A DNA stretch of 64,000 nt from assembly GCF_053078305.1 (NCBI RefSeq), contig NZ_CP166875.1. One strand, 5' to 3'. The notes beneath the pieces are model-generated. The model saw only the letters and a program-made list of their open reading frames with translations. It was not told the origin of the DNA and searched no databases. How positions within the stretch are numbered: the stretch's first letter is position 1; each line of letters begins with the position of its first letter. This document shows positions 1,671 to 3,243 of the stretch, one piece after another. The DNA is from a plasmid. The position numbers and the translations under genes were made by a program.

Positions 1671-2045
1671 GCTGTTCAGGATCTTCCTCTCCCCCCACAC
1701 AACGCCACCTCCCGTCATCACAACATGTGGTGCCGGATTCAGCTGCTGATGACACTATATGTTGTGTCATCTCCCTGACCTGTGATGCGTCGCGCAGGGG
1801 CGGAAAACAGCGATATGATGATTTCCTCAGCGTGGTACACTTCCGGAAAGTTGTGATATTCCGGAAAGTCGGATCTGACGGAAACGGCTCTCCGGTAATT
1901 TAACGGCGTGGTTATATGGATGCTTGTTATCATGGTGATGATGATAACGGCATGATGTTATCAGACGGCGTGACGGTAAGGGCAGTGATGATGGATGACG
2001 TTATCGCATGACCGTCCCTGCCCGGAAAAGAAAAAGGAGTCACCC

Positions 2046-2459
2046 ATGTTTTTTATTGAGAATGAAGGTCAGGCTGTCGCCGGAACGGATTACTGGCAGT
2101 CTGTACAGGCGCAGGCCGGATATGTCTACCTCAGCTGGAATGCCGGCGCAGCCAGGCTGCTTGTCCCGGATGCGGCAAAACATTTACTCAGGGAGATGCG
2201 GGGGGCTGAGTACGTCATCATCAGTAAGGGAACGCTGCATGGCCGCGATGCGCTGGAACTGGTATTTGAAGACGGCAGCGATGCGCCGTTTGTGATCCAC
2301 ATGCTGAGTGAGCAGTGCGATCGCCTGCTCCCCGAAAACAACCAGGGAGGGGGTTTTGTTGTCACCGTCTGGACGCGTGGCGGTAACCAGCTCCGTTATC
2401 CGGGAAAGTACCGTGTTGTGGAAAACCTGCCCGACGTTTCCCCGTGGAGTGAACACTGA
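2046..2459 (+). CDS. Hypothetical protein, 137 aa, immediately upstream of and probably co-transcribed with resD
   Basis: ORF 1995..2459 with a better start at ATG 2046 preceded by AAGGAG; stop is 1 nt before the resD start. Confidence 0.6.
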   Translation: MFFIENEGQAVAGTDYWQSVQAQAGYVYLSWNAGAARLLVPDAAKHLLREMRGAEYVIISKGTLHGRDALELVFEDGSDAPFVIHMLSEQCDRLLPENNQGGGFVVTVWTRGGNQLRYPGKYRVVENLPDVSPWSEH

Positions 2460-2460
2460 T

Positions 2461-3243
2461 ATGCAGCACCTGCCGGCACCGATCCACCATGCCCGGGATG
2501 TCGCTCAGCTTCCTGTTGCCATCGATTATCCGGCAGCGCTGGCACTCCGCCAGATGTCGATGGTTCATGATGAACTGCCAAAATACCTGCTGGCCCCTGA
2601 AGTGAGCGCCCTGCTCCATTACGTCCCGGATCTGCGCCGCAAGATGCTGCTGGCCACACTGTGGAACACCGGTGCGCGCATTAATGAAGCACTGGCGCTG
2701 ACGCGGGGGGATTTTTCGCTCACGCCCCCGTATCCGTTTGTGCAGCTGGCTACTCTGAAGCAGCGGACAGAAAAAGCCGCCAGGACGGCAGGAAGAATGC
2801 CAGCCGGTCAGCAGACTCACCGGCTGGTTCCGCTCTCCGACTCCTGGTACGTCAGCCAGCTGCAGACGATGGTGGCCACACTGAAAATCCCCATGGAACG
2901 GCGTAATAAACGAACAGGCAGGACAGAGAAAGCGCGGATCTGGGAAGTGACGGACAGAACGGTCAGGACCTGGATTGGGGAAGCGGTTGCCGCCGCTGCC
3001 GCTGATGGTGTGACGTTCTCTGTCCCGGTCACGCCACATACGTTCCGCCATTCCTATGCGATGCACATGCTGTATGCCGGTATACCGCTGAAGGTCCTGC
3101 AGAGCCTGATGGGGCATAAGTCCATCAGCTCAACGGAGGTCTACACGAAGGTGTTTGCACTGGATGTGGCTGCCCGGCACCGGGTGCAGTTTTTGATGCC
3201 TGAGTCCGATGCTGTCACAATGCTGAAAAACAGGCAGGCATAA
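2461..3243 (+). CDS. resD: Tyrosine site-specific recombinase (plasmid multimer resolvase, ResD-like)
   Basis: Translation from ATG 2461 (MQHLPAPIHH...) has the integrase-family C-terminal catalytic region (HTFRHSYAMHMLYAGIPLKVLQSLMGHKSISSTEVYTKV); the in-frame upstream extension listed in the ORF track is probably not translated. Confidence 0.85.
   Translation: MQHLPAPIHHARDVAQLPVAIDYPAALALRQMSMVHDELPKYLLAPEVSALLHYVPDLRRKMLLATLWNTGARINEALALTRGDFSLTPPYPFVQLATLKQRTEKAARTAGRMPAGQQTHRLVPLSDSWYVSQLQTMVATLKIPMERRNKRTGRTEKARIWEVTDRTVRTWIGEAVAAAAADGVTFSVPVTPHTFRHSYAMHMLYAGIPLKVLQSLMGHKSISSTEVYTKVFALDVAARHRVQFLMPESDAVTMLKNRQA

What the first reader, a model, noticed from the sequence alone, without database searches (positions are those of the whole stretch)
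1995..3243. resD recombinase preceded by a tightly coupled 137-aa ORF
The upstream ORF ends 1 nt before the resD start, suggesting co-translation. An accessory protein for the resolution system is plausible but not something I can identify.
Basis: inference. Interest (0 to 1): 0.35.

Follow-up and report, generated by a model that had tools for sequence, protein, structure and literature searches.

The report
Plasmid resolvase with unrelated passenger gene
This is the well-known F-plasmid dimer-resolution recombinase ResD with its target site. The small gene packed against it is probably not a helper but an unrelated, widespread mobile-element gene of unknown function, sitting where the F plasmid carries its ccdAB addiction genes.

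Summary
A 137-aa ORF (2046-2459, strong SD) ends 1 nt before a 260-aa tyrosine recombinase gene (2461-3243). The recombinase is 95% identical to F-plasmid ResD.

I located its rfsF-like site at 1657-1684 (AGATCCG-N14-AGGATCT). It is unique in the window and in F, and plasmid modules are shuffled exactly there.

The "accessory protein" reading is not supported:
- F has ResD and rfsF but no ORF137. It carries ccdAB in the same slot, and pSLT carries ccdAB plus two other unrelated genes.
- Only about 21% of resD copies in complete E. coli genomes could have ORF137 beside them.
- ORF137 belongs to a large family with no Pfam model (942 clusters at 50% identity) across Alpha-, Beta- and Gammaproteobacteria.
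- In 32 loci outside the IncF/IncI plasmids it is a solitary gene in variable prophage, ICE or plasmid accessory regions. It is never coupled to a recombinase.

ORF137 is under purifying selection. Its structure is predicted very confidently (pLDDT 96.9) but matches nothing in PDB or BFVD. IncI-style annotation calls it "yedA", with no known function.

Best reading: known resolution module plus a hitch-hiking cargo gene that probably acts on its own. Its biochemical role remains open.

The parts
1615..1643 (+). Extra copy of the left arm plus left part of the centre of the recombination site. It is the first unit of a perfect 29-bp tandem repeat; the second unit is 1644-1672.
   Evidence: It is present in the window and in pFHI_NMBU_11_02, and absent from L001, L012 and L056, which have a single site. 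The unit ends at the inferred crossover point 1672|1673.
1657..1684 (+). rfsF-like core recombination site: AGATCCG (1657-1663), a 14-nt variable centre (1664-1677) and AGGATCT (1678-1684).
   Evidence: It is unique in the 64-kb window, where 0.006 matches are expected by chance, and unique in the whole F plasmid at nt 45922-45949. One copy lies at the equivalent position in all 12 related loci checked, including pSLT. Left-module and right-module homologies among at least 5000 plasmids break here. PMC4398462 places the rfsF sites at the start of F RepFIA, nt 45922.
1679..1900 (+). Conserved non-coding block homologous to the F segment between rfsF and the ccd promoter (the oriV1 region).
   Evidence: 82% identity to F nt 45944-46165. 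PMC4398462 gives the F order as rfsF, oriV-1, ccdAB, resD.
1901..2045 (+). Cassette-specific upstream region of ORF137. It has recurring (G)TTATC/GATAAC motifs, a candidate extended -10 (TGtTATCAT, 1925-1933) and the SD AAGGAG at 2034-2039.
   Evidence: There is no homology to F here. The motifs and the -10 were read from the sequence by eye. The consensus promoter scan found nothing here, so the promoter assignment is inference only.
2046..2459 (+). ORF137 (called 'yedA' in IncI-style annotation). It encodes a 137-aa acidic (pI 5.1), beta-rich protein of a large uncharacterised mobile-element family.
   Evidence: Homology to a phage-plasmid-like contig covers exactly 2046-2460.
2461..3243 (+). 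resD, the tyrosine site-specific recombinase (plasmid multimer resolvase). Codons 1 to about 15 belong to the swapped cassette; the conserved part starts near 2502-2508.
   Evidence: The motif residues are R73 (GARINE), H193-x-x-R196, H219 and Y228.
3242..3305 (+). Two hairpins after resD, a likely operon end. The second is followed by a U-rich tract.
   Evidence: z = -3.35; terminator-like site 3278-3305.

Best explanation
The locus is the F-type ResD/rfsF plasmid multimer-resolution module. The order is an rfsF-like core (1657-1684), a conserved oriV1-like block (1679-1900), a variable cassette (about 1901-2507) and the conserved body of resD. ResD alone is the recombinase. It should bind the 7-bp inverted arms and exchange strands within the 14-nt centre, converting plasmid dimers to monomers. 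This step is inferred from 95% identity to F ResD and from published work on F. ORF137 is not part of that machinery. It is a discrete cargo gene occupying the slot that holds ccdAB in F, and ccdAB plus two other ORFs in pSLT. resD is always the distal, tightly abutted gene of whatever sits in the slot, so its expression probably rides on the upstream cassette's promoter and on ribosomes terminating 1 nt before its ATG (inferred). ORF137 belongs to a large, strongly conserved family of solitary ~140-aa acidic beta-rich proteins with no solved-structure neighbour. The family is scattered through accessory regions of prophages, ICEs and plasmids. I think it most likely acts alone on a conserved host or rival-element target, for example as an anti-defence or establishment factor (about 0.35). 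That role is inference from context only.
For: ResD identity: Pfam and NCBIfam tyrosine recombinase; 95% to F ResD and 88% to pSLT RsdB; catalytic residues present. Site: a unique inverted repeat in the window and in F, conserved in 12 loci, with module breakpoints mapping to it, consistent with PMC4398462 and PMC5587640. Cassette swap: window-F homology covers only 1679-1900 and 2508-3228. F has ccdAB there, pSLT has ccdAB-PSLT029-PSLT030, and both sets are unrelated to ORF137. No ORF137 is found in F. ORF137 is in 810 of 5426 E. coli genomes against 3294 for resD. ORF137 is a real, independent gene: 942 cluster representatives; 60% identity to Chromatiales homologues; dN/dS about 0.10; pLDDT 96.9; homology to the 77%-identical copy in L043 is confined to the ORF itself. 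In 32 loci outside IncF/IncI there is no co-oriented downstream recombinase and no universal neighbour. Contexts are accessory islands: PAPS-reductase/ParB, SSB/H-NS/SLT, Macro, DUF1281, Mrr, UmuD. Natural 126-aa variants lack the most conserved motif yet keep an intact resD. In pSLT the whole ccdAB-to-PSLT032 stretch is one transcript that includes rsdB (PMC5065971).
Against: No experiment on this plasmid separates ORF137 from resolution. The 1-nt junction is conserved wherever ORF137 and resD co-occur, and the cassette carries its own resD N-terminal ~15 codons, which could hide a lineage-specific interaction. No promoter was confidently found for the operon. The anti-defence idea rests on neighbourhood flavour only: there are no PADLOC, PHROG, Pfam or fold matches. 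In 6-8 of the 32 loci a phage-type integrase lies within 6 kb. It is never coupled or ResD-like, but this is a weak background association with element ends. The rfsF core is inferred from comparative data, not from mapped cleavage sites.
Confidence: 0.7

Rival explanations
1. ORF137 is a lineage-specific accessory or regulatory subunit of ResD, for example imposing resolution selectivity, repressing the operon at the TTATC repeats, or chaperoning ResD. It would be made in stoichiometric amounts through translational coupling.
For: The 1-nt junction is conserved in all ORF137-resD plasmids. The cassette includes a distinct ResD N-terminus. Repeated motifs lie upstream of ORF137.
Against: F ResD, 95% identical, has no ORF137 anywhere on the plasmid. 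About 79% of resD copies in E. coli lack it. Homologues at 77% identity and below are never recombinase-coupled. The protein is acidic and beta-rich with no DNA-binding or known accessory-factor similarity. Core-deleted variants coexist with an intact resD.
Confidence: 0.08
2. ORF137 is a functional replacement for the ccdAB cassette. It would be a single-gene plasmid-stabilisation determinant (addiction, growth control or exclusion) or the autoregulator of the resD operon.
For: It occupies exactly the ccdAB slot between the rfsF/oriV1-like block and resD. No ccdAB is present elsewhere in the 64-kb window. In pSLT, CcdAB controls rsdB expression (PMC5065971).
Against: There is no similarity to CcdA/CcdB or to any toxin or antitoxin family, and no partner gene for a two-component module. 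In other elements the homologues sit among phage early or accessory genes rather than maintenance genes. Slot sharing can be explained simply by recombination between conserved flanks.
Confidence: 0.12
3. ORF137 is a spurious or decaying ORF with no function, and the junction is accidental.
For: It is annotated only as a hypothetical protein. In-frame deletion and chimeric variants exist.
Against: There are 942 family clusters. dN/dS is about 0.10 with dS saturated. Invariant and near-invariant residues are present. The AlphaFold model has pLDDT 96.9. The gene has a canonical SD.
Confidence: 0.01

Closest known systems
F plasmid ResD (D protein) / rfsF multimer-resolution system
   Same: The recombinase is 95% identical over residues 8-257. 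The same AGATCCG-N14-CGGATCT site lies upstream. The block between site and operon is homologous at 82%. resD is the last, tightly abutted gene of the operon.
   Different: The slot between the conserved block and resD holds ORF137 instead of ccdA-ccdB. The first ~15 ResD codons differ. The window has an extra duplicated left half-site. The neighbouring replicon genes (repE, sopAB) are not in the window.
Salmonella virulence-plasmid Rsd/RsdB resolution system (pSDL2/pSLT)
   Same: RsdB is 88% identical. The same inverted-repeat site lies about 500 bp upstream of the operon. rsdB is part of a polycistronic operon that begins upstream (PMC5065971).
   Different: In pSLT the slot holds ccdAB, PSLT029 and PSLT030, with a 33-nt gap before rsdB and an EAL-domain gene after it. 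None of these is related to ORF137. I could not read Krause and Guiney 1991, so its description of crs was not compared.
'yedA-resD' pair as annotated on IncI-type plasmids (ColIb-P9/R64-style gene names)
   Same: The gene pair, the 1-nt junction and the upstream site are identical on IncI-gamma/K1 plasmids. ORF137 is the gene labelled yedA there.
   Different: Nothing functional has been published for this yedA in the papers searched. It is unrelated to the chromosomal E. coli transporter gene of the same name (own knowledge).
Accessory-factor-dependent tyrosine-recombinase resolution (XerCD at cer/psi with ArgR/PepA or ArcA; lambda Int with Xis/IHF)
   Different: ORF137 shows no sequence or fold similarity to any such factor. 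It does not co-occur with recombinases across its family.
Small anti-defence or establishment proteins of plasmids and phages (ArdA, ArdB/KlcA, PsiB, Ocr)
   Same: ORF137 is also small, acidic and solitary, is carried by many kinds of mobile element, and lies in variable accessory islands near ssb, ParB-like, Macro and Mrr-type genes.

Membership tests
Tyrosine site-specific recombinases (Pfam PF00589) | Catalytic-domain profile match above the curated threshold | tested here: met
   67 bits against a cut-off of 27.1, covering residues 42-231; phrog_216 integrase at 2.3e-34.
Tyrosine site-specific recombinases (Pfam PF00589) | Conserved R...H-x-x-R...H/W...Y catalytic residues | tested here: met
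   R73 (GARINE), H193/R196 (HTFRH), H219 (MGHKS) and Y228 (EVYTK) were read from the translation. The assignment to catalytic roles rests on established motif knowledge.
F ResD/rfsF resolution system | Recombinase orthologous to F ResD | tested here: met
   95% identity over 250 aa; 92% DNA identity over 2508-3228.
F ResD/rfsF resolution system | Cognate rfsF-type site in cis, upstream of the operon | tested here: met
   The AGATCCG-N14-(C/A)GGATCT site is unique in the window (1657-1684) and in F (45922-45949) and conserved in 12 loci. Its identity with the biochemically defined rfsF is inferred from position and from module breakpoints.
F ResD/rfsF resolution system | Resolves plasmid dimers or cointegrates in vivo | not testable with these tools
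   This needs a two-site resolution assay.
   ORF137 is absent from F and from pSLT's slot. It occurs at 858 places against 4047 for resD in E. coli genomes. None of 32 non-IncF/IncI loci has a coupled recombinase.
   No Pfam, NCBIfam, PHROG or PDB sequence hit. No fold hit.
CcdAB-type toxin-antitoxin (occupant of the same slot in F) | Homology to CcdA/CcdB, or a two-gene toxin-antitoxin layout | tested here: not met
   It is a single gene with no family hit. No CcdA or CcdB is present in the window.
Known anti-phage defence proteins (PADLOC-DB) | Profile match to a defence-system component | tested here: not met
   No match for either protein.
Anti-restriction / anti-SOS proteins (ArdA, ArdB/KlcA, PsiB) | Shared fold with solved members | tested here: not met

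The most novel reading that the evidence does not exclude
ORF137 founds a new-fold family of stand-alone mobile-element effectors, present in about 15% of complete E. coli genomes and across Alpha-, Beta- and Gammaproteobacteria. The protein would act on a conserved host or competitor target, for example as an anti-defence, establishment or exclusion factor. On IncF/IncI plasmids it has been captured into the resD operon, so that it is expressed constitutively from the maintenance region.
Probability: 0.35. Interest if true: 0.55.

Novelty: new variant of a known kind. Interest (0 to 1): 0.3.

Why it matters
The resolution module itself is textbook. Two things are useful.

First, the slot between rfsF and resD is a recurrent cargo position: ccdAB in F, ccdAB plus two ORFs in pSLT, and ORF137 here. 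The rfsF core is where whole plasmid modules are exchanged among IncF, IncI and IncR plasmids, which matters for reading mosaic resistance and virulence plasmids.

Second, ORF137 is a very common plasmid gene, in 810 of 5426 complete E. coli genomes. It belongs to a large family with no Pfam model, strongly constrained, with a confident model and no structural neighbour. That makes it a clean, cheap target for functional screening. If it proved to be an anti-defence or host-modulating factor, the result would apply to more than a thousand sequenced clinical and veterinary plasmids.

Tried and rejected
- **Family libraries.** ORF137 gave no hit in Pfam, NCBIfam, PHROGs or PADLOC. A profile search against PDB sequences gave only noise, E >= 0.4.
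- **Fusion partners.** An N-domain is shared by P0127, P0129 and P0151, and a C-domain by P0127, P0219 and P0246. They have no known function (weak phrog_28365 only). One fusion carries DUF4262.
- **The DUF6404 tag on P0032.** P0032 turned out to be a deletion chimera, not homology.
- **Neighbour clustering over 32 loci.** The only recurrent partner set is SNF2...PAPS-reductase/DUF3440 + ParB_N, in one lineage of 5 loci.
- **Literature.** No paper mentions WP_000465036 or gives a function for plasmid yedA. The pESBL Tn-seq and early-conjugation RNA-seq papers do not mention this gene. Krause and Guiney 1991 is not held. One search on rsvA/rsvB was swamped by respiratory syncytial virus papers.
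- **Junction and RNA checks.** RNA occlusion of the resD start is not supported. No Rfam family matches in 1-4000.
- **Promoter.** The consensus scan found no promoter between 1900 and 2045.
- **Locus scan.** The first attempt with the broad alignment failed for lack of conserved stretches and was redone with closer sequences.

Full report
**Observation.** On the + strand an ORF starts at ATG 2046, with AAGGAG six nucleotides upstream, and ends at TGA 2457-2459, giving 137 aa. After one nucleotide (T2460) a second ORF runs from ATG 2461 to TAA 3243, giving 260 aa. The finding's left coordinate, 1995, is an in-frame upstream ATG that would give 154 aa. The 2046 start fits the SD, the RefSeq CDS and the N-termini of homologues. 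The same 1-nt junction is annotated in four other plasmids. A GGAG lies 11 nt before the resD ATG. The junction RNA is not unusually structured. Two hairpins follow resD.

**The recombinase.** The 260-aa protein is a tyrosine recombinase: Pfam Phage_integrase at 67 bits, with sub-threshold Xer-like NCBIfam hits. The R, H-x-x-R, H and Y residues are present. It is 95% identical to F-plasmid ResD over residues 8-257 and 88% identical to pSLT RsdB. The resD body occurs in 3294 of 5426 complete E. coli genomes. That F ResD resolves dimers at rfsF is established knowledge (Lane 1986 and O'Connor 1986, recalled from memory). Papers read here cite it (PMC4398462; PMC5587640).

**The site.** The window matches F only at 1679-1900 (82%) and 2508-3228 (92%). 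A distant-mode search of 1250-2050 showed that the left-hand module (ydeA/ydfA) and the right-hand module occur independently in thousands of plasmids. Their homology breaks between about 1644 and 1679. Aligning examples revealed a shared element, AGATCCG-N14-(C/A)GGATCT.
- In the window it lies at 1657-1684 and is unique, with 0.006 matches expected by chance.
- In F it is unique at nt 45922-45949, exactly where PMC4398462 starts the RepFIA region "containing rfsF sites, followed by oriV-1, ccdAB and resD".
- One copy sits at the equivalent position in all 12 related loci checked, including pSLT, about 500 bp upstream of ccdA.
- The 14-nt centre is mosaic between plasmids, as expected if crossovers occur inside it.
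- The window and its closest relative carry an extra left half-site. In the window this is a perfect 29-bp tandem repeat whose unit ends at the inferred crossover point.

I take this to be the rfsF-type core (confidence about 0.75). Cleavage positions are not known from this work.

**The slot.** Between the conserved block and the conserved body of resD lies a replaceable cassette, about 1901-2507. In F it is the ccd promoter plus ccdA-ccdB, with ccdB's last base abutting the resD ATG. In pSLT it is ccdAB-PSLT029-PSLT030, and that whole stretch is one transcript that includes rsdB (PMC5065971). Here it is ORF137 with its own upstream region and its own first ~15 resD codons. ORF137 is unrelated to PSLT029 or PSLT030. 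F contains no ORF137 homologue anywhere. The window contains no ccdAB. ORF137 DNA is found at 858 places in E. coli genomes against 4047 for resD, so at most about 21% of resD copies have it. By tblastn, 1160 PLSDB plasmids carry it. The pair also occurs on IncI-gamma/K1 plasmids, where ORF137 is labelled yedA.

**ORF137 is a real gene of a large unknown family.**
- It has no Pfam, NCBIfam, PHROG or PADLOC match.
- An exhaustive search found 942 cluster representatives at E <= 1e-3, of which 564 are at <= 1e-10.
- Homologues at about 60% identity occur in Thiocystis, Lamprobacter, Rhodocyclaceae and Azoarcus. More distant ones occur in Shewanella, Pseudomonas, Devosia and Hyphomicrobiales.
- The alignment has invariant P41 and P129, and near-invariant N6, G25, R37, L39, G62, E71, D76, P81 and R123.
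- dN/dS against a 65%-identical homologue is about 0.10.
- The protein is acidic, with pI 5.1.
- AlphaFold2 with a 64-sequence alignment gives pLDDT 96.9 and pTM 0.90 for a mostly beta structure.

**Context outside IncF/IncI.** I examined 32 independent loci. None has a co-oriented recombinase immediately downstream, and none has a ResD-like protein. Phage-type integrases occur within 6 kb in 6-8 loci, on the other strand or 0.8-5 kb away. All-against-all clustering of neighbouring ORFs found no universal partner. One lineage of five loci has SNF2...PAPS-reductase/DUF3440 + ParB_N upstream. Other neighbours are SSB/SLT/H-NS on a Rep3 plasmid, Macro/DUF1281/Mrr in an island of small genes, and UmuD plus terminase in a phage-plasmid-like contig. 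Homology between the window and that 77%-identical copy covers exactly 2046-2460, that is, the ORF alone. Natural 126-aa variants lack the ELVFEDGSDAP core yet keep an intact resD.

**Interpretation.** ResD identity, the site and the cassette replacement are shown by the data. ORF137's independence from recombinases is shown across its family. Two steps are inferred. First, resD expression rides on the upstream cassette by co-transcription and re-initiation. Second, ORF137 acts on its own. I put about 0.85 on ORF137 being dispensable for resolution and about 0.35 on an anti-defence, establishment or host-interference role. The remaining probability is spread over stabilisation, regulation and unknown roles.

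**Comparison with known systems, and novelty.** The module is a member of the F ResD/rfsF family, with the sequence-testable features met and activity not testable here. The arrangement with ORF137 is a variant of that known module and is already present, unremarked, in annotated IncI and IncF plasmids. The uncharacterised element is ORF137 itself. Interest is modest (0.3): nothing here would surprise a plasmid specialist, but ORF137 is a well-defined, prevalent unknown.

Noticed in passing
window 1615-1672: A perfect 29-bp tandem duplication adds a second left arm of the rfsF-like site, and the unit boundary coincides with the inferred crossover point. Most relatives have one copy. The closest relative (NZ_CP045714) has two units with different centres.
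   Followed up: partly
window 1901-2010: A (G)TTATC/GATAAC motif recurs about five times upstream of ORF137, and there is a candidate extended -10 (TGtTATCAT, 1925-1933). This may be an operator array for an unknown regulator.
   Followed up: no
window 3414-6982: Colicin M (cma 3816-4655 on the - strand, cmi about 3414-3766 on the + strand) and colicin B (cba 5420-6982 on the - strand, cbi 4824-5402 on the + strand) gene pairs lie immediately right of resD. The window therefore comes from a ColBM-type IncF plasmid.
   Followed up: partly
window 96-359 and 393-584: A C-terminal fragment of a Tn3-family transposase is followed by what looks like the C-terminal part of a DUF6404 gene. This suggests a transposon insertion truncated the DUF6404 gene, which is intact in related plasmids.
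   Followed up: no
window 602-1449 (- strand): The ydeA/ydfA-like pair (196 aa and 85 aa, no Pfam) forms the module left of the recombination site. It occurs in thousands of IncF, IncI and Klebsiella plasmids joined to quite different right-hand modules, for example AAA ATPase genes.
   Followed up: partly
P0032 (protein cluster, E. coli-like): This is a natural chimera: the N-terminal 50 residues of the DUF6404 protein are fused in frame to ORF137 residues 51-137, presumably through a deletion spanning ydeA/ydfA and the recombination site.
   Followed up: partly
L012 1828-2205; P0004, P0006: 126-aa ORF137 variants carry an in-frame 11-aa deletion that removes the most conserved motif (E71, D76, P81). 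They are represented by about 90 member sequences, and resD downstream is intact.
   Followed up: partly
P0127, P0129, P0151, P0219, P0246, P0215: The ORF137 domain recurs fused to two other unknown domains: an N-domain with an 'HxTLxTGH...WLGDxER' motif and a weak phrog_28365 match, and a C-domain with a 'YPxDxGHSI' motif. In one case the partner is DUF4262.
   Followed up: partly
L003, L013, L014, L017, L044: In one prophage-like lineage (Thiocystis, Thiodictyon, Rhodocyclaceae, Azoarcus) the ORF137 homologue directly follows an SNF2 helicase...PAPS-reductase/DUF3440 + ParB_N (IbrA/IbrB-like) block.
   Followed up: partly
L011, L029: Contigs assigned to Lachnospiraceae and Clostridiales MAGs carry E. 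coli plasmid sequence at 96-99% identity. This is almost certainly binning contamination. The L011 homology to the window starts exactly at 1657, and its resD appears split into two ORFs.
   Followed up: no
F plasmid NC_002483 35618-36358 (L037): F carries a second tyrosine recombinase next to RepFIB that is 49% identical to ResD. The window has only the one copy.
   Followed up: no
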